Source: a phage. From it: a stretch of DNA of 64,000 nucleotides. Positions 3,037 through 50,320 of this stretch are shown in pieces. The position numbers were made by a program, and so were the translations under genes. The first letter of the stretch is position 1. Each line of letters starts with the position of its first letter. The stretch lies in sequence record PZ151149.1. One strand, 5' to 3'. Below the pieces are notes generated by a model. It searched no databases. It saw only the letters and a program-made list of their open reading frames with translations, and was not told the DNA's origin.

Positions 3037-3567
3037 TTAGTATTTTACGTTACGTCGAACGCCTTTTCGAATCTGACAAATAGCAGACGGTGAAACATTA
3101 TATTTTCTTGCAAGTTCTACACCCTTCATATGGGGAGAAGATAAAATCTCTTCCACTTGGTCGTCGGTAAGTTTTGCGTTTCCGTGGTTCTCTCCCCAAT
3201 TGTTGTTTAATCCTTCTTCCTTCGCATGAACAAGATTTCGGGTATCTGTCGTCCATTCAAGATTATAAAGGTCATAGTTTTGTTTGTTTCCATCCTTATG
3301 ATTAACTACACGGTAGTTATTTGGATTCGGAATAAACGCAACCGCCATAGCTTTATGCATGTTCACGGTTTTTCTAAATCCATCCGGCTTATAACATACT
3401 GTAAATTTAGAATAACCAGTTTTACCATAAACACTAATATAATTTCCGGTCTCTGTATTTCTAACCCTACCATGAGAGCTAATCTCAAATTGAGTGTAGG
3501 GCAACAGCGCATCAATCACTTTCCATTCTTCGACAGGATGGTCATCACAATATCTTTTAATCATCAT
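3037..3567 (-). CDS. HNH homing endonuclease (NUMOD4-like N-terminus)
   Basis: Motif VNHKDGNKQNYDLYNLEW (HNH) and N-terminal W..I....YEIS..GRVRN pattern; sits after a terminator between conserved genes. Confidence 0.65.
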   Translation of the reverse strand: MMIKRYCDDHPVEEWKVIDALLPYTQFEISSHGRVRNTETGNYISVYGKTGYSKFTVCYKPDGFRKTVNMHKAMAVAFIPNPNNYRVVNHKDGNKQNYDLYNLEWTTDTRNLVHAKEEGLNNNWGENHGNAKLTDDQVEEILSSPHMKGVELARKYNVSPSAICQIRKGVRRNVKY

Positions 3568-3575
3568 ATCACCTC

Positions 3576-3607
3576 ATAAAAATAAAGCCAACCCTTTCGG
3601 ATTGGCT
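3576..3607 (-). terminator. rho-independent terminator after the GrcA-like gene
   Basis: Hairpin GCCAATCC-GAAA-GGGTTGGC followed by T-run on minus strand. Confidence 0.5.
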
Positions 3608-3614
3608 TAAAAAA

Positions 3615-4031
3615 TTACATTGCTTCCGTAAAGGTGCGCGAAATAACGTCACGTTGTTGGTCTGGAGTCAGACTATTGAATCTTACGGCATATCCGCTAA
3701 CGCGAATGGTTAGTTGCGGATACTTATCAGGATTAGCAACCGCATCAAGAAGAAGATCGCGACTCATCACATTGATATTCGCGTGCTGACCACCTTCGAC
3801 AACCGGAGCGCCATTATCTACAACAACCGGACGGAAGCTAGTTGTGTGCAGTGCCAGCGAATCGACGTCTTCGGCGGTGATCACATGTTCTTCTGCGAAA
3901 GTTTTACTAACAATTACTTTAGCGCCGATCAGTGCTTTCGGTTCGGATACCAGAATCATAGGCGCGAAGTGTCCACCGATAATAGTACCTTTATGCTCAC
4001 CTTTCATGATTTGAATTGCTTTAAATTCCAT
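3615..4031 (-). CDS. grcA: autonomous glycyl radical cofactor (GrcA/YfiD-like)
   Basis: C-terminal glycyl-radical fingerprint [13 protein letters not shown] identical in type to pyruvate formate-lyase/GrcA; T4 is known to encode a YfiD homolog. Confidence 0.75.
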
Positions 4032-4166
4032 AATTCACCTCTTATAGATCAGGACGTTCGTCATTAACTTTTCCAACCAAAACCCCATAGAGCCTATCAG
4101 GTTGGACTTTACGATTCTTTTTAATTGTAGCACGAAATCGACGAGCTACGCTATCTTTATTTTTCA

Positions 4167-4652
4167 TCAGTTGATACCTAAGCCAATGAAAATAGGTTGG
4201 TCTTCTACATTACCCATCCCAACACTAAGTCGATTTACTTCTAAAAACTGCAATACGCTGTCAGTAAATCCTCGCATGGTAGTATCTAGGATAAAGATTG
4301 TTTTGTCAAGACTACGACCTCGCCAAGTGATCGGATTCAGGAAAGTTCGGATCGAAGTGCAATCTACATTTGAAATGTTGATATTTTCACCGCGACCGCG
4401 TTCTCGGATCGTTTTGGCATGTTCCCGCGTTGTTGAAACGATAAAAACACTATATCCTTTTCGCGTATAATGGTCATATAACTTGATTGTAGCGTCTGTA
4501 TGCCCTGTTTGACGGCCTAAATTGATTGAGACGATGGAATCTAGGTCATCAGCAAAATTACGTCGCTTACGGCGTTCTATGATGCCATCTACGGCAGATA
4601 CACACGCAGCATAAATCAAATCTTTACTTTCTAATTTTACATCAATATTCAT
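4167..4652 (-). CDS. hypothetical protein (161 aa)
   Basis: ORF with ATG start; no recognisable motif. Confidence 0.5.
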   Translation of the reverse strand: MNIDVKLESKDLIYAACVSAVDGIIERRKRRNFADDLDSIVSINLGRQTGHTDATIKLYDHYTRKGYSVFIVSTTREHAKTIRERGRGENINISNVDCTSIRTFLNPITWRGRSLDKTIFILDTTMRGFTDSVLQFLEVNRLSVGMGNVEDQPIFIGLGIN

Positions 4653-4714
4653 GGTAAAGTCTCCAGTGAACGGGGAGAGATCCTTAGATTGTCTCCCCGT
4701 TGATGGTTAATATT

Positions 4715-5104
4715 TTATTTTGGATCTGGGTATTTGCTGTGTGGCAATTGTAGATGAGGACCATCTTTGAAACTAGACCAATCCCCACCCCATTCAACAG
4801 GAACACCCAATTCTCGACCAGCTTGTTTAAATGCATCAGCGATCATGCGGTAATATTTCATGTTCCATGTATCCTTATCTTTAGGATACGCTACAACGTC
4901 AACCGCGAAACCGTGAAGATGACGAGATTTCATAGTCTTAGATTTACCTTCCGCAACATATTTCTTTTGCGTTTCTAGACTACGCACACCTTCCGTAATA
5001 CCAAAATCGACCGGAGTCAGTTCTAATGCACGATGAACGACTTTTACCAGGTCTGGATGTACACCAACAAGCCGATCTTTGCTTCTTTGAGATAATTTAA
5101 ACAT
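4715..5104 (-). CDS. L-alanyl-D-glutamate peptidase endolysin (peptidase M15, T5 Lys-like)
   Basis: Close resemblance to remembered phage T5 endolysin N-terminus (V.P.L.KV..RALEL.P.DF.I..G.R) and SRHLHGFAVDV zinc-binding motif. Confidence 0.7.
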   Translation of the reverse strand: MFKLSQRSKDRLVGVHPDLVKVVHRALELTPVDFGITEGVRSLETQKKYVAEGKSKTMKSRHLHGFAVDVVAYPKDKDTWNMKYYRMIADAFKQAGRELGVPVEWGGDWSSFKDGPHLQLPHSKYPDPK

Positions 5105-5132
5105 TATTCACCCCCTTTGTGAGTGATAATAT

Positions 5133-5324
5133 TTAGATTCCTGTGATCCTGCATAGAGTTCTTGTATTAGCACCAATCAGGATCGCATTAACGGCAACCA
5201 TTCCCCAATCAACCCACGGATTATTATAAATGCTAAATCCGTTTGCTAGGCCAAATACAAGCATTCCGGTACACATACTCAGAGCAATAATCAACATCAC
5301 GGTAAAACCAAATGCAAATCTCAT
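5133..5324 (-). CDS. small membrane protein (63 aa)
   Basis: ORF, two hydrophobic segments. Confidence 0.4.
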   Translation of the reverse strand: MRFAFGFTVMLIIALSMCTGMLVFGLANGFSIYNNPWVDWGMVAVNAILIGANTRTLCRITGI

Positions 5325-11961: not shown

Positions 11962-12552
11962 TTACTTTCTAAATGCAGGGTGCATAGCTTTAATACCTTC
12001 CACTCGCTGACGATCCGCCGCCTGAATTGCTGGGCGAGGAACGATCAGTTGACCATCACGTTCAATGCTCATTGTTTTAAATGGAAGAATTGCAGTACAC
12101 ACCAGAGATTCATGCATGTCATCGGTGTATGTTAACTCAAGTTCCCCCAATTGTGAACACCAACAACCATAAAAGTTAAAGGTGCATACAATGTTACGGC
12201 GTTCATTGTCCAGCATGTGAACTTGAACGGCTTCCGGCATTGAATCCTTCCACGCGGTGGAGTTACCGTTATTGTAGTCTACTATAGAAAGCATCCATGT
12301 GTAAAGGTTTAGATAGCTTTCCAAATGCTCATCGACAATAAACCGGACTACCAACGGGTCAAACTCTACATGACTGGAAGGATAATCAGCGACCGCCAAA
12401 CCATATTGACCAGCAACTTGTTTAGTCGGTGGAATGGTTATAGCCGGAAGTGTAACACCTTGACAGTTTAAAGTAAAGCCTTTTGTTAGTTGACCATCTG
12501 GAATGGCAATCTGCCAGTTGCTAGGGTTAGCATAGTTAAAGAGATTGGACAT
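11962..12552 (-). CDS. 3: tail completion / sheath stabilizer protein gp3-like
   Basis: Position between genes 1 and 2 as in T4; size close to gp3; identity not checked residue by residue. Confidence 0.6.
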   Translation of the reverse strand: MSNLFNYANPSNWQIAIPDGQLTKGFTLNCQGVTLPAITIPPTKQVAGQYGLAVADYPSSHVEFDPLVVRFIVDEHLESYLNLYTWMLSIVDYNNGNSTAWKDSMPEAVQVHMLDNERRNIVCTFNFYGCWCSQLGELELTYTDDMHESLVCTAILPFKTMSIERDGQLIVPRPAIQAADRQRVEGIKAMHPAFRK

Positions 12553-12582
12553 TACGATTCCTTAAATGAAAATATTTATCAA

Positions 12583-13116
12583 CTAAAAATTTAAACTAGC
12601 ATAATCTCCAAAATGTTCCTTTGCTGCTTCGTCATAAGCCTTTGCAGCATCAACTTCGTCAAGAAAGACGCCCAAATGGACCTTTCTACGATTGATTGAT
12701 ATCTGAGCACACCATTTGTTATTCTGTGTTCTAATCACTCCTTTATACTTACTCTTACAACCATCAAGTTTTCCGCGATTGAATGCATTTTCCTGAGAAG
12801 TGGATTCTCTCAAGTTATCCGGTGCATTATTTTCTCGGTTTCTATCTATATGGTCGATCATTTTAACTTGCGTACCATGTTCAAGATACCAAACAACCCT
12901 ATGAACTTTAATGACCAAAGAATAGCCATCACTGCGCCAAAACTTAAAACATAGATAACCTCGACTATTTTTATAAACTTTAACCGGGTCTCCTGCCTTA
13001 TACCATCGACCATTCTTTCCACTATCTTTCAAATGGTACAATATACCATTAACGTGTTTATACTTATCTCTAATTTCTTTTTGTGTAAAATCATCCCACA
13101 TCTTAAACCCAGACAT
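12583..13116 (-). CDS. HNH homing endonuclease with C-terminal AP2 DNA-binding domain
   Basis: HNH motif IDHIDRNRENNAPDNLRESTSQENAFN; AP2-like YKGVIRTQNNKWCAQISINRRKVHLGVFLDEVDAAKAYDEAA; inserted between genes 3 and 2. Confidence 0.7.
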   Translation of the reverse strand: MSGFKMWDDFTQKEIRDKYKHVNGILYHLKDSGKNGRWYKAGDPVKVYKNSRGYLCFKFWRSDGYSLVIKVHRVVWYLEHGTQVKMIDHIDRNRENNAPDNLRESTSQENAFNRGKLDGCKSKYKGVIRTQNNKWCAQISINRRKVHLGVFLDEVDAAKAYDEAAKEHFGDYASLNF

Positions 13117-13152
13117 ACATTTTCTCCTGATAATATTATTAATAACAACATC

Positions 13153-13182
13153 AATCTAACATATCTAGTATATAATGTCAAT
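13153..13182 (-). promoter_or_regulatory. possible sigma70-like promoter (TTGACA-N18-TAGATT) for the AP2-HNH gene
   Basis: Hexamers on minus strand; 18-nt spacer. Confidence 0.35.
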
Positions 13183-13232
13183 TGTCGCTTTGCGACGTGC
13201 CGTAGGCACTGACTACTTTTTAACCGAAACAA

Positions 13233-13267
13233 ATTTTCTATATTCTAAAGATCTTTCTTCGTTTTGG
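13233..13267. repeat. intergenic repeat copy A (ATTTTCTATATTCTAAAGATCTTTCTTCGTTTTGG)
   Basis: About 33 of 35 nt identical to 50186..50220; contains palindrome AAAGATCTTT. Confidence 0.6.
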
Positions 13268-13336
13268 TTATGTTTTAACCAATAACTATATTTTTATACA
13301 GTAATAAATAAAACTGGTACTATACGAGGACTTCTT

Positions 13337-13591
13337 ATGACAGAAGACATTTTGTTAAAACTCTATGATCGTTTGGATAACGAATTAGCAACATTGCGGG
13401 GTGAAGTTCTCTATTTGTCTAAATGCAATACAGATCTGATTAAGCAGATTGCCGAAAGGGATGACCAAATAAAATCCCTTTCAGGCGCATTACGTGATCG
13501 CGACAAGGCATTAGAGATTTTACAGCGTGTAACCAATAAAGAAGAGTTGAAAGACTTTCTACATGGTTATGCTCACGCCATCGATCTATAA
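13337..13591 (+). CDS. hypothetical coiled-coil protein (84 aa)
   Basis: ORF with GAGGA RBS; heptad-like charged sequence; followed by strong terminator. Confidence 0.5.
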   Translation: MTEDILLKLYDRLDNELATLRGEVLYLSKCNTDLIKQIAERDDQIKSLSGALRDRDKALEILQRVTNKEELKDFLHGYAHAIDL

Positions 13592-13592
13592 T

Positions 13593-13622
13593 AAAAAGCC
13601 CGTCAATGACGGGCTTAATTTT
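13593..13622. terminator. bidirectional rho-independent terminator
   Basis: Hairpin AGCCCGTC-AATG-ACGGGCT flanked by A-run and T-rich run; convergent genes on both sides. Confidence 0.6.
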
Positions 13623-14649
13623 AATATGTATCAGCTAATTTAATTATGTTATCAAGTTCCGTGATTGGTAAAGTTTCTGTGTATCCATCTTTCAACATGG
13701 ATTTATCAACAACGCCACAATGATAAGTTCTCTTTATTTCCTTTTCAAGTTCCCACGGAATCCAGCCATCAACACTTTGTTTGACGTAAACAAGTTTGTG
13801 AACAAACTTAGATTTCTGCATATGTTGTTTCATTCTGGTTTCCGGTAATTCATTGGTTACACCAAACTTTATAAATTTATCATCTAACGTCTGGATATAA
13901 AAATATCCCATCTCAGATGGACGATAGCCAGAAGAACTACATTTCGGACACCCTTTAGCATTTCTGTTGAACGTACAATATCTTACAGAAAATTCGGCGT
14001 CATGTTTTGTACATTTAAGTTTTATCCATGAATTTGCAGTACCTATCCATTCACCATCGACACCTATATATTCATACCCTAACTTTTTACATTTATCTTC
14101 TATTCTAGATAGTGCATCTTCCACGGGAACGACATATTCCGTCTTAAATTGTTCAGCCGCACATTTCTTACAACCACATGTACCATGATTTTTAAAATCA
14201 AAGAACTTTGTATTCTTCCAAATATGGTCATGTTTCTTGCATCTAAGAATCATCTTAGTAATTTGTGATTTCCAGCCACCAACAAATCCCAAAAATTCAT
14301 AATCAAGATCTTTACATTTTTCTTCAATGAATTTGGTTGCTTCATCTTCTGTCATAACTCCCCTACATTGAGGGCAACCAACAATAACCTTTTTAGCATA
14401 GAAACTATTACTGGAAACATCATAGACAGTTCCATGCTTATTGCATTGGATAACAGATCTAGTCAATTTTCCTTTCCATTCTCCAGTAAATCCTAAGAAT
14501 GTATGGTCGACAAGTTTACATCTTTCAATAACTTTATCTGCAAACTCTCTAGGAGATTTTGTTACCTTGTTTACTCTGTATTCTATTTCTTCCGGTTGAC
14601 GAAGATCATAAACGTGGGGATTTCTCCCCACGGAATTAATATTAAGCAT
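13621..14649 (-). CDS. putative endonuclease-like protein: three tandem Cys-containing repeats plus C-terminal GIY-YIG-like (T5orf172-like) motif
   Basis: Three roughly 85-aa repeats each with FLGF.GEWKG...C.KH...W...GC..C pattern; C-terminal GYFYIQ...KFGVT...R..H resembles a GIY-YIG core; ATG at 14649 just after gene 2 stop. Confidence 0.5.
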   Translation of the reverse strand: MLNINSVGRNPHVYDLRQPEEIEYRVNKVTKSPREFADKVIERCKLVDHTFLGFTGEWKGKLTRSVIQCNKHGTVYDVSSNSFYAKKVIVGCPQCRGVMTEDEATKFIEEKCKDLDYEFLGFVGGWKSQITKMILRCKKHDHIWKNTKFFDFKNHGTCGCKKCAAEQFKTEYVVPVEDALSRIEDKCKKLGYEYIGVDGEWIGTANSWIKLKCTKHDAEFSVRYCTFNRNAKGCPKCSSSGYRPSEMGYFYIQTLDDKFIKFGVTNELPETRMKQHMQKSKFVHKLVYVKQSVDGWIPWELEKEIKRTYHCGVVDKSMLKDGYTETLPITELDNIIKLADTY

Positions 14650-15463
14650 CTTTCCACACCTTCCTTGCATCATAGTTTTTACCTTTAGAAACAAATTTAT
14701 ATGTGTTAAGGTAGATAATATTGCTCCAGTCTTTCGGGCTAATCTCAACAAGTTTTGTTTTAATGTGTCCCGGTAGATATGCTTTGATCATGTGGTCACT
14801 ACCACGCATACCTTTTACATCACTCCATTTAATCTTCAAGCGTGTTTTATTGCTCAAGGTAGGAGTAGATGCATATTGCTTTAAAAGTGCTTCCAGAAAC
14901 TGCTGACGGGCTTTAGGCGTTACATAGTGTAAGTTAAGACCCAGCATTACAGTATTACCCGCCTTTGTCTTAGAATCACCCAGACAAATGATCAGCGGGA
15001 AAACATCCCAATATGGCAAAGTATCTTTATACTTCGCATCATACATAAAGGTATAGATTCGCCCTACTTGCGGTTTTACAATCTGGTGTCCCTTTATTCC
15101 AGCTTTTATTGTTTTAGTAAACCACTCCTGTGATTTTTCTTTAGGACGACTCTTTGATACAGCACGCATAGACGCACGAAAATCATTAATCATCATCATT
15201 GCGCGTTGCTGCTTATTGAGACCCTTTGCACCTTTCCCTTTTAGTTTTTCAACTTCTATTGCTGTTTTAATTTCGCTGGCATAACGAGACATACTTTTAG
15301 TGAAAGTCGCATAGGCTATTCCCTTAGAATCTGCAAATGCTTTAGCTGTCATTCCTTTGGCTTTTGCTTTCGCAAATTCTACACCCAATTCGACCCACTG
15401 TTTAGACTTTCGCTTTTGGGGAGACGGCTTTTCGTCTTCTGTGATTATTTCAAATACGCTCAT
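14642..15463 (-). CDS. 2: DNA end protector protein gp2
   Basis: 273 aa from ATG at 15463 (T4 gp2 is 274 aa); basic N-terminus; position between gene 3 side and gene 4 as in T4. Confidence 0.7.
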   Translation of the reverse strand: MSVFEIITEDEKPSPQKRKSKQWVELGVEFAKAKAKGMTAKAFADSKGIAYATFTKSMSRYASEIKTAIEVEKLKGKGAKGLNKQQRAMMMINDFRASMRAVSKSRPKEKSQEWFTKTIKAGIKGHQIVKPQVGRIYTFMYDAKYKDTLPYWDVFPLIICLGDSKTKAGNTVMLGLNLHYVTPKARQQFLEALLKQYASTPTLSNKTRLKIKWSDVKGMRGSDHMIKAYLPGHIKTKLVEISPKDWSNIIYLNTYKFVSKGKNYDARKVWKDA

Positions 15464-15497
15464 AATATTGTCCTCTATGTTTATGTTTGTTACACAC

Positions 15498-15526
15498 TTG
15501 ACAATCCTCTTTGCTATTGCTAAAAT
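15498..15526 (+). promoter_or_regulatory. sigma70-like promoter (TTGACA-N17-TAAAAT) for the HNH-NUMOD3 gene
   Basis: Hexamers with 17-nt spacer about 65 nt upstream of ATG. Confidence 0.5.
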
Positions 15527-15589
15527 GCAGACGAAAATAAACAGCGATACTTGTTGATAAATATCATTATAACACAGGAGGAACATTAG

Positions 15590-16612
15590 ATGCAAGATAT
15601 TAAGAACAAAATTTTGATGCAGTTTCCGAATGCAGATATCAAGTATTTAGAAAAGTATCTAGAAATTTGTGCAAACCCAGATAAGGATGGGGAATTAGAG
15701 AGGCATCATATTCTACCAAAATCAATTTGGAAGGAATATGAAGACCTTAAAATTCATGATTTTAATGCTGTTCACTTGAACACCGTTCGTCATATGATGG
15801 CACACTACTATTTCAGTAAAGCAACAAATTCCATTTGGAAGTCTGTTGTTATGATGTTTAATACCAGAATTGATATTATGAAGGAATTGCCAGAAGATAT
15901 TGTGTTGAAACTTGCTGGTATATCAGAAGAGGCAAAGCGAAAACATGTATACACGGAAGAATCTAGACTGAAAATGTCGGAATCACAAAAACGTTTCATG
16001 GCTTCTCTTGATGAAGAAGAATTAAAACGTCGCCATAAGAAAAGAACTGATTCCGTTAAAGAACATTTTAGAAACTTGAGCGATGAAGAACGAGAAAGAA
16101 AGTATAAAGAACGTGGCAAGAAAATATCAAAGGCGTTAAGTAATAGATCAGAGGAAAAACTTAAATTACGAAGAGAAAGGCTTCTACAAACTATAAACTC
16201 AAAGTCAGACGAAGAAAAACAAAGAATCGCCAAACTACTTTCAGATTCACAAAAACCGAAAGAAACATGGGGAAAATTTGATGAGTTATATGCATTATGG
16301 ATTGATCTGAATATGCCGGGTCAATATGTATTCAAGCGCGAGGCCATTAAACGTGGATACCCAGATAGGTCATATGATTACATCGTTAAAGAAATGAAAA
16401 ATAAGTACATAAAGGAGAATGGAAACGACATAATAAAATTAAATCCCAGAAAAAATTCTGGTGTCTGGGTATATTATGACGAAATATATAAGCTGTGGAA
16501 AGAAAATGGTATGCCTAGCGATAGAAAAACAAGAAAAATAGCGGTCGAGAATGGTTATCCCGACCAATGCTATCAAACTATAGTAAAAGACTTTAAGAAC
16601 TCACTTATTTAA
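15590..16612 (+). CDS. HNH homing endonuclease with NUMOD3-like repeats
   Basis: HNH motif ERHHILPKS...N.V.L....H..H; several S/T-EE-x-[RK]-x-K-x-S repeats resembling NUMOD3; opposite strand to flanking genes 2 and 4; own sigma70-like promoter and AGGAGG RBS. Confidence 0.7.
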   Translation: MQDIKNKILMQFPNADIKYLEKYLEICANPDKDGELERHHILPKSIWKEYEDLKIHDFNAVHLNTVRHMMAHYYFSKATNSIWKSVVMMFNTRIDIMKELPEDIVLKLAGISEEAKRKHVYTEESRLKMSESQKRFMASLDEEELKRRHKKRTDSVKEHFRNLSDEERERKYKERGKKISKALSNRSEEKLKLRRERLLQTINSKSDEEKQRIAKLLSDSQKPKETWGKFDELYALWIDLNMPGQYVFKREAIKRGYPDRSYDYIVKEMKNKYIKENGNDIIKLNPRKNSGVWVYYDEIYKLWKENGMPSDRKTRKIAVENGYPDQCYQTIVKDFKNSLI

Positions 16613-17074
16613 ACCTTTAAAACCGAACACCTTTTTTAATGTGTGTTCGGTTATGATTTTAAATTCCATATTATGTTTTTTACACAATGCTACTGCCGCT
16701 GCCCACTTTTCGGTATTTTTCGTCCACGTCCAAGCCTCCATCATATAACGCTGCTTTGTTTTAGTCGTTAATCGCTTTGGCTTTTCTGGTGGTCTAGTCT
16801 CTTTGGCTGGCTTAATTTCCCATAAATGCTCTTTTCCATCATCAAACTTAACATAAACATCAACAAAATATCTGTGACGCTTACCGTCTGTTGATGAATT
16901 GTAAGGAATTACAACGGTCTCAGATCCCCATTTAACCACATGAGGATTACGGTCACACCATTTAAAAACATGCAATTCCCAGCTTGAACGGTATGTGATT
17001 TTCCGTATATCCCCTTTATACTTTTCCTTATTCTCAGGAACATACTTGCCCTTATAAGTGTTAGATCCTCCCAT
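16601..17074 (-). CDS. 4: head completion protein gp4
   Basis: Size (157 aa) and divergent position next to gene 53 as in T4. Confidence 0.75.
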   Translation of the reverse strand: MGGSNTYKGKYVPENKEKYKGDIRKITYRSSWELHVFKWCDRNPHVVKWGSETVVIPYNSSTDGKRHRYFVDVYVKFDDGKEHLWEIKPAKETRPPEKPKRLTTKTKQRYMMEAWTWTKNTEKWAAAVALCKKHNMEFKIITEHTLKKVFGFKGLNK

Positions 17075-49907: not shown

Positions 49908-50044
49908 AATATTTCCTCCATAGAAAGCAATATCATACTACAAGTTAATAACAAATACAAGTATCCGCGTAGCGGAAGCGAGCACAGCGAGCAATAAAAC
50001 ACTTCCAGTAATTGATTAATAAATGTTCGAAACAAATTTTTATT

Positions 50045-50100
50045 ATTCTATAAGATAAGTCTTCGTTTTGATCATAATTTAATCATACATGTAAAAACTA
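50045..50100. repeat. intergenic repeat copy C (core CTTCGTTTTGATCATAATTTAATCA)
   Basis: 25-nt core identical to 50210..50234; 149 bp spacing. Confidence 0.6.
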
Positions 50101-50185
50101 CACAAAAGGATATCGCTTCGCGAACTCCTACGGAGTATAACATTTGTGTTACAATATGTAGTGAGTAATAATTAACCAAAGATAC

Positions 50186-50245
50186 ATTTTCTATGTTCTA
50201 AAGATCTTTCTTCGTTTTGATCATAATTTAATCAAACAGTATTAA
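50186..50245. repeat. intergenic repeat copy B (ATTTTCTATGTTCTAAAGATCTTTCTTCGTTTTGATCATAATTTAATCA)
   Basis: Combines the copy A segment and the copy C core. Confidence 0.6.
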
Positions 50246-50286
50246 TATTGTGCACATGTAAACTAAAATTATGTTAATAACATATA

Positions 50287-50313
50287 CAAAAAAGCCGCCC
50301 AGAAGGACGGCTA
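50287..50313 (-). terminator. rho-independent terminator after 50321..50758
   Basis: Hairpin AGCCGTCC-TTCT-GGGCGGCT then TTTTTT on minus strand. Confidence 0.6.
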
Positions 50314-50320
50314 ATGTTAA

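What the first reader, a model, noticed from the sequence alone, without database searches (positions are those of the whole stretch)
12583..16612. Three free-standing endonuclease-like genes inserted in the 1-3-2-4 block
In T4 genes 1, 3, 2 and 4 are contiguous. Here an AP2-HNH gene sits between 3 and 2, a second unusual endonuclease-like gene precedes 2, and an HNH-NUMOD3 gene on the opposite strand with its own promoter sits between 2 and 4. Three independent mobile-type insertions in about 4 kb make this a likely homing hotspot.
Basis: partly seen in the sequence, partly recalled or inferred. Interest (0 to 1): 0.55.

Follow-up and report, generated by a model that had tools for sequence, protein, structure and literature searches.

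The report
Three homing-endonuclease genes in one phage block
Three selfish nuclease genes of three known types sit between essential virion genes of an RB49-like (T4-related) coliphage; relatives lack them at exactly the same sites, so this is an ordinary but unusually clean example of homing-endonuclease invasion.

Summary
The window is a Krischvirus (RB49-like) genome. Between genes 3, 2 and 4 lie three extra genes. The first is an HNH_3+AP2 nuclease (12583-13116, -). The second has CapR zinc-finger repeats and a GIY-YIG-fold (T5orf172/MUG113-type) nuclease domain (13621-14649, -). The third is a Mob-like HNH nuclease with its own sigma-70-type promoter (15590-16612, +).

RB49 and most relatives have precise empty sites. 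Phi1, phiS, Makalu_002 and Cognac carry one or two of the inserts in different combinations. No searched record carries all three. Each insert is tied to a one-sided tract of insert-specific substitutions in the neighbouring essential gene. The tracts are about 35 bp at the gene 3 ribosome-binding site, about 70 bp at the 3' end of gene 2, and about 370 bp (about 20% divergent) in gene 4. This pattern is expected from homing with co-conversion.

Three of the four insertions of at least 500 bp relative to RB49 in 51 kb fall within 1.3 kb of backbone, and the fourth is also HNH-like. A second T5orf172-family lineage occupies the gene 2 site in AV108.

All three families are described, and the genes are annotated as endonucleases in GenBank relatives. 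Cleavage and homing remain untested. Verdict: real, interpretation supported, modest novelty.

The parts
11962..12552 (-). Gene 3 (tail completion / sheath stabiliser), left neighbour of insert 1. Insert-1-specific changes lie at 12547, a 1-nt deletion near 12556, 12563 and 12580. They cover codon 2, the Shine-Dalgarno sequence and spacer, and the late-promoter-like GATAAATA at 12573-12580.
12584..13178 (-). Insert 1 (595 bp; the boundary is ambiguous by one C). It consists of the HNH_3+AP2 endonuclease ORF plus 62 bp of its own 5' leader. It lies immediately upstream of the gene 3 late-promoter-like element.
12583..13116 (-). HEG1: a 177-aa HNH_3 (residues 70-111) plus AP2 (122-167) endonuclease, with an AGGAG Shine-Dalgarno sequence 7 nt before the ATG.
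13153..13181 (-). Sigma-70-like promoter candidate for HEG1 (TTGACA-17-TAGATT). The -35 hexamer spans the insert/backbone junction. Two short GC hairpins at 13183-13210 lie just upstream of it.
13337..13591 (+). ORF130-like 84-aa conserved gene (PHROG 17832, function unknown). It is present in all relatives and is not an insert.
13596..13616 (.). Bidirectional terminator hairpin that follows gene 2 directly in empty-site phages. Here it follows HEG2.
13624..14629 (-). Insert 2 (about 1.0 kb, flanked by about 15 bp of TTAAT-TTA microhomology). It was inserted exactly after the gene 2 stop codon and has no promoter of its own.
13621..14649 (-). HEG2: a 342-aa protein with three CapR-type Zn-finger repeats and a C-terminal GIY-YIG-fold (T5orf172/MUG113-type) nuclease domain (about residues 245-342). 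Its start codon overlaps the gene 2 stop (ATGCTTAA).
14613..14632 (-). Stable 8-bp hairpin with a GNRA loop, 16 nt inside the HEG2 ORF. It is terminator-like and is conserved in all HEG2 alleles, including Phi1.
14642..15463 (-). Gene 2 (DNA end protector). The tract linked to insert 2 is 14641-14711. The changes in the last nine codons are synonymous and create an AAGGTG Shine-Dalgarno sequence for HEG2.
15479..16613 (+). Insert 3 (1135 bp). It replaces the 9-11 bp gene 4-gene 2 spacer of RB49.
15498..15526 (+). Sigma-70-type early promoter of HEG3 (TTGACA, 17 nt, TG-TAAAAT; 11 of 12 matches). A late-promoter-like GATAAATA lies at 15556-15563 and an AGGAGG Shine-Dalgarno sequence at 15576-15581.
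15590..16612 (+). HEG3: a 340-aa Mob-like HNH endonuclease. Residues H39, H40, N59, H68 and H72 are invariant or nearly so. It has a helical NUMOD3-like middle region and two C-terminal helix-turn-helix-like modules. Its last 12 nt overlap the end of gene 4 on the opposite strand.
16601..17074 (-). Gene 4 (head completion). In the tract 16607-16970, 71 of the 72 columns linked to insert 3 are found. The allele is about 80% identical to every phage that lacks the insert (48 synonymous and 21 non-synonymous codon differences versus RB49).

Best explanation
The block holds three independently acquired free-standing homing endonuclease genes (HEGs), lodged in the spacers between essential virion genes 3, 2 and 4 of a Krischvirus.

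**Inferred mechanism (intronless homing, as for T4 seg and mob genes).** During mixed infection, each nuclease cuts or nicks the HEG-less allele of the neighbouring gene. The broken genome is repaired from the HEG-bearing genome. This copies in the HEG together with a stretch of flanking sequence whose substitutions make the new allele uncuttable.

**Predicted targets.**
- HEG1: the gene 3 ribosome-binding site and start region.
- HEG2: the last ~70 bp of gene 2.
- HEG3: the 3' 370 bp of gene 4.

**Expression differs by gene.**
- HEG3 has its own early promoter and a strong Shine-Dalgarno sequence.
- HEG1 has a Shine-Dalgarno sequence and a weak promoter formed at the junction.
- HEG2 has no promoter. 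It is read from the late gene 4-2 transcript and is translationally coupled to gene 2, probably damped by a hairpin at its 5' end.

**Shown here:** the anatomy, the domain content, the precise empty and filled sites, the independent distribution, and the one-sided linked tracts. **Inferred:** nuclease activity, target positions and homing itself.
For: 1. **Empty versus filled sites.** Junctions are exact to the base in 17 related genomes, and every combination occurs: none, #1, #2, #3, #1 plus another gene at site 2, and #2+#3. In the phage collection, full-length insert 1 is in 2 records, insert 2 in 11 and insert 3 in 3, out of about 60 Krischvirus records.
3. **Insert-linked substitutions sit on one flank only.** For #3, 71 of 72 linked columns are at 16607-16970. 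For #2, 7 of 7 are at 14641-14711. For #1, 7 of 10 are at 12505-12580. The gene 4 allele linked to #3 is found at >=99% identity only in the three other #3 carriers and at <=80% elsewhere.
4. **Recoding next to the junctions.** The final codons of gp4 (GLNK) and of gp2 (KVWKDA) are recoded synonymously.
5. **Large insertions are all nuclease genes.** All four window-specific insertions of >=500 bp versus RB49 in 51 kb encode HNH or GIY-YIG-type proteins, and the 31-kb structural module has none.
6. **Published families.** T5orf172+CapR-repeat and HNH+AP2 genes are described as phage HEG families that sit next to essential genes at boundaries of allele exchange (PMC10448857, PMC8096241).
Against: - No cleavage or inheritance data exist for any of the three.
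- Linkage of an insertion to nearby variants, decaying with distance, is also expected from a single insertion followed by ordinary recombination.
- HEG2's own sequence reaches only E=0.046 for GIY-YIG.
- MIZ4 carries the gene 2 tract linked to HEG2 without the HEG, so that tract is not strictly dependent on the HEG.
- Gene 4 has other divergent alleles in phages without any HEG.
- The clustering statistic is post hoc.
Confidence: 0.8

Rival explanations
1. The genes are cassette ('moron' or PeSL-type) insertions. They were placed by homologous or illegitimate recombination at promoter/stem-loop elements, as proposed for RB49/phi1 ORFans. The nuclease played no part in their spread.
For: - Arbiol et al. 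attribute most RB49/phi1 gene differences to recombination between promoter-stem-loop cassettes (PMC2839356).
- HEG3 brings its own sigma-70-type promoter.
- HEG1 has two GC hairpins directly upstream of a junction-spanning -35 hexamer, which is a PeSL-like layout.
- Insert 2 is flanked by about 15 bp of microhomology.
Against: - The empty site of #3 is an 11-bp coding-to-coding spacer with no promoter or stem-loop.
- The #3 leader has no GC stem.
- The empty site of #2 is the gene 2 stop codon.
- No second cassette copy flanks any insert.
- All inserts of >=500 bp are nuclease genes rather than random ORFans.
- The one-sided, highly divergent flank tracts fit break repair better.
Confidence: 0.1
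2. The three genes are domesticated or decayed nuclease relatives that are no longer mobile. They would be kept for another role, such as excluding co-infecting phage or satellite DNA, or CapR-like transcriptional repression.
For: - CapR is a repressor derived from this kind of HEG, and Odn is a T5orf172 protein turned to anti-satellite defence (PMC8096241, PMC10448857).
- HEG2's DNA-binding repeats differ sharply between the window and Phi1 alleles while the nuclease domain is identical.
- HEG3 carries a duplicated C-terminal DNA-binding module.
Against: - Presence is patchy and in the minority, as expected for selfish rather than useful genes.
- The ORFs are intact and the catalytic-type residues are conserved.
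- The flank tracts point to recent transfer. Marker exclusion is itself the homing mechanism seen from the recipient's side.
Confidence: 0.08
3. The genes are ancestral to Krischvirus and were deleted repeatedly in most lineages.
For: MIZ4 has the gene 2 tract linked to HEG2 but no HEG, which could be a precise loss.
Against: - The empty arrangement matches T4, where genes 2 and 4 abut, and RB49, where they are 11 bp apart and coupled.
- Deletions would have to be exact to the base many times over.
- Carriers are 2, 11 and 3 of about 60 records.
- The carrier-specific gene 4 segment is about 20% divergent in a backbone that is about 95% identical, which indicates import.
Confidence: 0.02

Closest known systems
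T4 Mob-type HNH free-standing homing endonucleases (MobA-E; MobD-like genes of T4-related phages)
   Same: HEG3 aligns over about 260 residues with the MobD-like HEG of Salmonella phage Melville (26% identity, E 2e-16). The alignment includes the HHILPKSI..N.VHL..H..AH motif and the C-terminal W..FD.LY..WI module. Like mob genes, it is free-standing between conserved genes. tblastn finds 22-26% identity to HEGs annotated next to gene 56 in many T4-like phages.
   Different: HEG3 sits in a different slot (between genes 2 and 4, convergent with gene 4 and overlapping it by 12 nt). It is longer, with a duplicated C-terminal module. The subfamily is rare: 6 clusters in 5.8 billion proteins at E<=1e-3, and the nearest relatives are in Vibrio genomic islands. 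It has no Pfam HNH or NUMOD3 hit.
T5orf172/MUG113 (GIY-YIG superfamily) HEGs with CapR/DUF723 zinc-finger repeats, described in vibriophage ICP1, T5-like phages and others (Netter 2021 PMC8096241; Barth 2023 PMC10448857)
   Same: HEG2 has the same architecture: repeated CxxC...CxxC CapR-type modules at the N-terminus and a nuclease domain at the C-terminus. It lies next to an essential gene at a boundary of allele exchange. Its DNA-binding repeats are swapped between alleles.
   Different: The host is a T4-related phage, and Barth et al. note that T4 itself has no T5orf172 genes. HEG2 has no promoter of its own, and its start codon overlaps the gene 2 stop. Its nuclease domain is too divergent for a direct Pfam T5orf172 or MUG113 hit.
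HNH+AP2 homing endonucleases of phages, cyanobacteria and protists (family cited as ref. 45 in PMC10448857); I-HmuI as structural reference
   Same: HEG1 has an N-terminal HNH_3 domain and a C-terminal AP2 DNA-binding domain. It matches I-HmuI (6e-4) and plant AP2/ERF domains (2.9e-7). Paralogous genes sit at other loci in Krischvirus and RB16-like genomes.
   Different: HEG1 is not the 'IPA-HNH' subclass, which by definition escapes the HNH_3 Pfam profile, because HEG1 hits HNH_3 strongly. It is short (177 aa) and lies immediately upstream of the gene 3 late promoter.
Intronless homing of T4 seg and mob genes, with co-conversion of flanking markers (own knowledge of the T4 literature: SegF/gene 56, SegG/gene 32, MobE/nrdB)
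   Same: A HEG sits in a spacer beside an essential gene, and a one-sided tract of HEG-linked substitutions is found in that gene.
   Different: Here this is inferred only from comparative sequence. The cleavage sites are unknown.

Membership tests
Free-standing homing endonuclease gene (functional class) | Encodes a nuclease domain joined to sequence-reading DNA-binding modules | tested here: met
   HEG1 has HNH_3+AP2. HEG2 has CapR repeats and a GIY-YIG fold. HEG3 has an HNH motif, a helical NUMOD3-like region and HTH-like modules.
Free-standing homing endonuclease gene (functional class) | Presence/absence polymorphism at one precise site among close relatives | tested here: met
   Base-exact empty sites exist in RB49 and others, and the three inserts are distributed independently.
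Free-standing homing endonuclease gene (functional class) | Flanking sequence co-converted with the gene (HEG-linked variant tract next to the insert) | tested here: met
   One-sided linked tracts lie at 12547-12580, 14641-14711 and 16607-16970. This is indirect: ordinary linkage could contribute.
Free-standing homing endonuclease gene (functional class) | Cleaves the HEG-less allele and is inherited above the input ratio in mixed infection | not testable with these tools
   Needs enzyme assays and phage crosses.
HNH+AP2 homing endonucleases | N-terminal HNH_3 domain | tested here: met
   PF13392 at 6.8e-14 (51.7 bits; cut-off 24.8). I-HmuI (1u3e) at 6e-4.
HNH+AP2 homing endonucleases | C-terminal AP2 DNA-binding domain | tested here: met
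   Pfam AP2 is below its cut-off (20.1 vs 33.3 bits; E 8e-4). PDB AP2/ERF domains match residues 120-177 at 2.9e-7 and 7e-7.
IPA-HNH subclass (Barth 2023) | HNH domain too divergent for the HNH_3 Pfam profile | tested here: not met
   HEG1 hits HNH_3 strongly. The definition is in PMC10448857.
T5orf172/MUG113 HEGs with CapR-type repeats | One or more CapR/DUF723/DUF4379 Zn-finger DNA-binding domains | tested here: met
   CapR at 1.2e-14 with 3 stretches. Cysteine pairs are conserved in the alignment.
T5orf172/MUG113 HEGs with CapR-type repeats | Pfam T5orf172 (PF10544) or MUG113 (PF13455) hit on the protein itself | tested here: inconclusive
   There is no direct hit. GIY-YIG scores E 0.046 on the isolated domain. 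10 of 24 full-length homologues hit MUG113 and 3 of 24 hit T5orf172. The AV108 gene at the same site hits T5orf172 at 0.0075.
T5orf172/MUG113 HEGs with CapR-type repeats | GIY-YIG fold with conserved Tyr, Arg and Glu | tested here: met
Mob-type HNH homing endonucleases / 'HNH-NUMOD3' | Full-length homology to annotated Mob HEGs | tested here: met
   BLASTP to the Melville MobD-like HEG gives 2e-16 over residues 18-277. PHROG 655 matches at 6e-15. tblastn supports this.
Mob-type HNH homing endonucleases / 'HNH-NUMOD3' | HNH (beta-beta-alpha-metal) catalytic motif | tested here: inconclusive
Mob-type HNH homing endonucleases / 'HNH-NUMOD3' | NUMOD3 repeats | tested here: inconclusive
   The window protein has no NUMOD3 hit even at E<=10. 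Homologues P0003 (1.3e-5) and P0056 (3.9e-18) hit NUMOD3 in the equivalent region.
PeSL promoter/stem-loop cassette (Arbiol 2010) | Sigma-70 promoter plus GC stem-loop flanking the ORF, with a resident PeSL at the empty site | tested here: not met
   - #3 has a promoter but no stem-loop, and its empty site is an 11-bp spacer.
- #2 has no promoter.
- #1 has a PeSL-like layout on one side only.

The most novel reading that the evidence does not exclude
The cluster may work as a miniature 'HEG island' and as an arms-race locus.

- Gene 2 is bracketed by HEG2 and HEG3, and ORF130 by HEG1 and HEG2. Cuts by any one nuclease could therefore drag the others and the essential genes between them into a recipient.
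- The swapped CapR repeats (the window allele versus Phi1, and the 27%-identical AV108 gene) may track changes in the gene 2 3' target. That would be retargeting of a T5orf172 nuclease against escape alleles, and the natural allele series would make it directly testable.
Probability: 0.2. Interest if true: 0.5.

Novelty: new member of a known kind. Interest (0 to 1): 0.3.

Why it matters
- **A ready-made test set.** Public Krischvirus genomes show every state of the three sites: empty, single, double and (in this window) triple. Homing, co-conversion length and immunity alleles could be tested for three HEG families, none of which was found tested in a T4-type phage in the papers read here. 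The T5orf172+CapR class rests mostly on bioinformatics.
- **Allele replacement in essential genes.** The data show that allele replacement in essential virion genes (gp4, gp2) travels with these elements. This matters for reading mosaicism in therapeutic coliphage genomes.
- **No new principle.** It adds no new principle.

Tried and rejected
- **Direct PDB sequence searches for HEG2 and HEG3.** These found nothing useful.
- **Profile of 22 HEG3 homologues against PDB.** This gave only a coiled-coil artefact.
- **Exact-sequence look-ups of HEG1 and HEG2.** No contigs were returned, so I could not find the source genome or another triple carrier.
- **Shared contig ends.** Four metagenome contigs all end at window position 13253. 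I first suspected population polymorphism at insert site 1. A 34-bp repeat shared with 50186-50219 probably accounts for the shared end (k-mer assembly break; inferred).
- **Rfam.** Nothing was found in the whole window.
- **Late-promoter search.** TATAAATA with one mismatch occurs less often than in shuffles, so the GATAAATA sites carry no statistical weight on their own.
- **One paper search failed** on a term that was too short.

Full report
**What the window is.** The 7 kb around the finding matches about 60 phage records, all Krischvirus (RB49-like, Straboviridae), at 90-98% identity. The best match is phage Cognac, at 97.9% over 92% of the query. Pfam and PHROG identify gp1 (dNMP kinase), gp3, gp2 (DNA end protector), gp4 (head completion), gp53 and gp5 at the expected places. 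In RB49 and every relative, a conserved 84-aa + strand ORF (RB49 ORF130; window 13337-13591) and a bidirectional terminator lie between genes 3 and 2. That gene is backbone, not an insert.

**The three genes.**
- **HEG1 (12583-13116, -; 177 aa).**
  - It hits HNH_3 at 6.8e-14. Its AP2 match is below Pfam's cut-off (8e-4).
  - Its C-terminus matches solved plant AP2/ERF domains at 2.9e-7, and its N-terminus matches I-HmuI at 6e-4.
- **HEG2 (13621-14649, -; 342 aa from the ATG used in relatives).**
  - It has three CapR-type zinc-finger stretches (1.2e-14).
  - The isolated C-terminal 104 residues reach only E 0.046 for GIY-YIG.
  - Of 24 aligned full-length homologues, 10 hit MUG113 and 3 hit T5orf172. 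Y251, K261/G263, R272, E302 and a DGYTE motif are invariant.
  - This is the architecture published for T5orf172 HEGs of ICP1 and other phages (PMC8096241, PMC10448857).
- **HEG3 (15590-16612, +; 340 aa).**
  - It has no Pfam hit.
  - It matches PHROG 655 'homing endonuclease' at 6e-15.
  - It aligns end to end with a MobD-like HEG at 2e-16.
  - It keeps an HH..N..H..H motif that is invariant or nearly so in 22 homologues, on a confident beta-beta-alpha element.
  - NUMOD3 is detected only in homologues.
  - The family is rare: six clusters at E<=1e-3 among 5.8 billion proteins. Apart from its own cluster (99% identical), the named relatives are all from Vibrio, and the one examined lies in a genomic island.

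**Insertion points.** The junctions against RB49 are exact.
- **Insert 1 (12584-13178, 595 bp).** It is the ORF plus a 62-bp leader. It was dropped immediately upstream of the late-promoter-like GATAAATA that precedes gene 3.
- **Insert 2 (about 13624-14629).** It begins at the gene 2 stop codon, and the HEG2 start overlaps that stop (ATGCTTAA). It therefore separates gene 2 from its terminator and has no promoter of its own.
- **Insert 3 (15479-16613, 1135 bp).** It replaces the 9-11 bp spacer between gene 4 and gene 2. It brings TTGACA-17-TG-TAAAAT (15498-15526) and an AGGAGG Shine-Dalgarno sequence. It ends 12 nt inside the gene 4 reading frame on the other strand.

**Independent distribution.** The states of the aligned genomes are as follows.

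| State | Genomes |
|---|---|
| None of the three | RB49, MIZ4, E26, KFS-EC, GEC-3S, kaaroe, G2494 |
| #1 only | phiS |
| #1 plus a different gene at site 2 | AV108 |
| #2 only | Phi1, ECD7, G2248, FL37, ELT3 |
| #3 only | Makalu_002, PHB13 |
| #2 and #3 | Cognac |

Collection-wide, full-length insert 1 is in 2 records, insert 2 in 11 and insert 3 in 3. No record has all three. Exact-sequence look-ups found HEG3 on nine contigs. All six places shown lie between genes 2 and 4 with site 2 empty. HEG1 and HEG2 were not on record. The AV108 gene at site 2 belongs to the same CapR+T5orf172 family but is only 27% identical.

**Flank signatures.** I aligned 18 genomes and asked which variable backbone columns separate carriers from non-carriers.
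- **Insert 3.**
  - 71 of 72 linked columns lie at 16607-16970, in the 3' 370 bp of gene 4. None lies on the gene 2 side.
  - This gene 4 allele differs from RB49's at 69 codons (48 synonymous, 21 not).
  - It is found at >=99% identity only in the three other carriers and at <=80% in everything else.
- **Insert 2.**
  - All 7 linked columns lie at 14641-14711, at the 3' end of gene 2.
  - The changes in the last nine codons are synonymous (AAA to AAG, GTT to GTG, AAG to AAA, GCA to GCT), and they create an AAGGTG ribosome-binding site for HEG2.
- **Insert 1.** The carrier-specific changes sit in the 36 bp to its left. They cover the gene 3 Shine-Dalgarno sequence and spacer, codon 2 and the promoter-like element.

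One-sided, abrupt tracts next to the insert are what break-repair homing with co-conversion produces. Ordinary linkage to a single old insertion could give a weaker version of the same picture. MIZ4 carries the gene 2 tract without HEG2, and gene 4 has at least three allele classes. The tracts are therefore supportive, not proof.

**Is it a hotspot?** Against 50 kb of RB49, the window has only four insertions of >=500 bp. Three are these genes. The fourth (3037-3567) encodes a NUMOD4+HNH_3-like protein. The 31-kb structural module has none. In empty-site coordinates the three points span 1.28 kb. Uniform placement puts three of four points that close with probability about 0.008, though the region was chosen because of the cluster. 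Two lineages of one HEG family at the gene 2 site add to the case.

**Rival mechanisms.**
- **PeSL cassette shuffling.** This was proposed for RB49/phi1 (PMC2839356). It fits poorly: the empty sites of #2 and #3 have no promoter/stem-loop element, and no insert is flanked by two cassettes. Only HEG1 has a one-sided PeSL-like layout.
- **Ancestral presence with repeated exact loss.** This is contradicted by the T4-like empty arrangement, the minority distribution and the imported gene 4 segment.
- **Domestication.** A repressor or exclusion role cannot be excluded, and it would not conflict with a homing origin.

**Comparison with what is known.** All three belong to described kinds: HNH+AP2 HEGs, T5orf172/CapR-repeat HEGs and Mob-like HNH HEGs. 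Relatives are already labelled 'endonuclease', 'homing endonuclease' or 'GIY-YIG nuclease family protein' in GenBank. What is new is modest:
- the triple occupancy;
- the base-level map of the sites and tracts;
- a T5orf172 HEG translationally coupled to gene 2 in a T4-related phage;
- sharp divergence confined to CapR repeats 2-3 between the window and Phi1 alleles (55-64% aa), while the nuclease domain is 100% identical.

**Verdict.** It is a new member of known kinds. Interest is about 0.3, mainly as a ready-made experimental system.

Noticed in passing
window 3037-3567 (-): This is a fourth window-specific insertion relative to RB49 (525 bp against 16 bp). It encodes a 176-aa NUMOD4 + HNH_3-like protein (HNH_3 3.7e-5, NUMOD4 5e-4, both just under the Pfam cut-offs). 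It lies between nrdC.11-like and vs.6-like genes.
   Followed up: partly
window 13225-13280, 50028-50085, 50183-50236: A ~60-bp intergenic element occurs three times, with core TTCTAAAGATCTTTCTTCGTTTTG. One copy lies between insert 1 and ORF130. The other two lie in a ~400-bp ORF-free region (49908-50320). Its function is unknown, and Rfam finds nothing in the window.
   Followed up: partly
L024-L027, each starting at window 13253: Four independent metagenome contigs end at the same base. The 34-bp repeat shared with 50186-50219 probably accounts for this (a k-mer assembly break, inferred), not a biological end or a polymorphism.
   Followed up: yes
window 14613-14632 (-): An 8-bp GC-rich hairpin with a GNRA loop (GAAA here, GCAA in relatives) sits 16 nt inside the HEG2 ORF and is followed by UUUAUGAU. 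It is conserved even in the divergent Phi1 allele. It may be a leaky terminator or attenuator that restores termination after gene 2 and limits HEG2 expression.
   Followed up: partly
window 13921-14400 vs L002 (Phi1): HEG2 is a mosaic. Its nuclease domain and first repeat are 98-100% identical in nucleotides to Phi1's. CapR repeats 2-3 are only 42-85% identical (55-64% aa). This suggests exchange of DNA-binding modules.
   Followed up: partly
L012 (MIZ4) gene 2 3' end, equivalent to window 14657-14711: MIZ4 carries the gene 2 tract otherwise linked to HEG2, but it has an empty site and RB49-type last codons. It is either a precise HEG loss or a resistant allele acquired without the HEG.
   Followed up: no
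L006 (AV108) 3121-5141: AV108 has a 380-aa CapR+DUF4379+T5orf172 gene at the gene 2 site, only 27% identical to HEG2. The gene has its own terminator-like hairpin. The 3' 500 bp of AV108 gene 2 is only 59-83% identical to the window.
   Followed up: partly
window 16601-17074; L011, L017, L005: Gene 4 has at least three allele classes in Krischvirus: the RB49 type, the HEG3-linked type, and a 477-nt type in ELT3, G2494 and phiS. The third class is not associated with any insert.
   Followed up: no
window 16268-16609 (HEG3 residues 227-339): The ~50-aa C-terminal helix-turn-helix-like module of HEG3 is duplicated in tandem (227-277 and 294-339). Homologues have one copy.
   Followed up: no
L021 (Vibrio parahaemolyticus MBTR01000002.1): The nearest non-phage homologue of HEG3 sits beside a large serine recombinase. 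It is at the edge of an island that also carries a Gp23-like capsid gene, an EcoRV-type restriction-modification pair and an antirestriction gene.
   Followed up: no
window 16446-16566 (-): Two terminator-like hairpins lie on the minus strand inside HEG3. They would stand between gene 4 and gene 2 on the late transcript. In empty-site phages these two genes are only 11 bp apart, so the insertion may have a cost for gene 2 expression.
   Followed up: no
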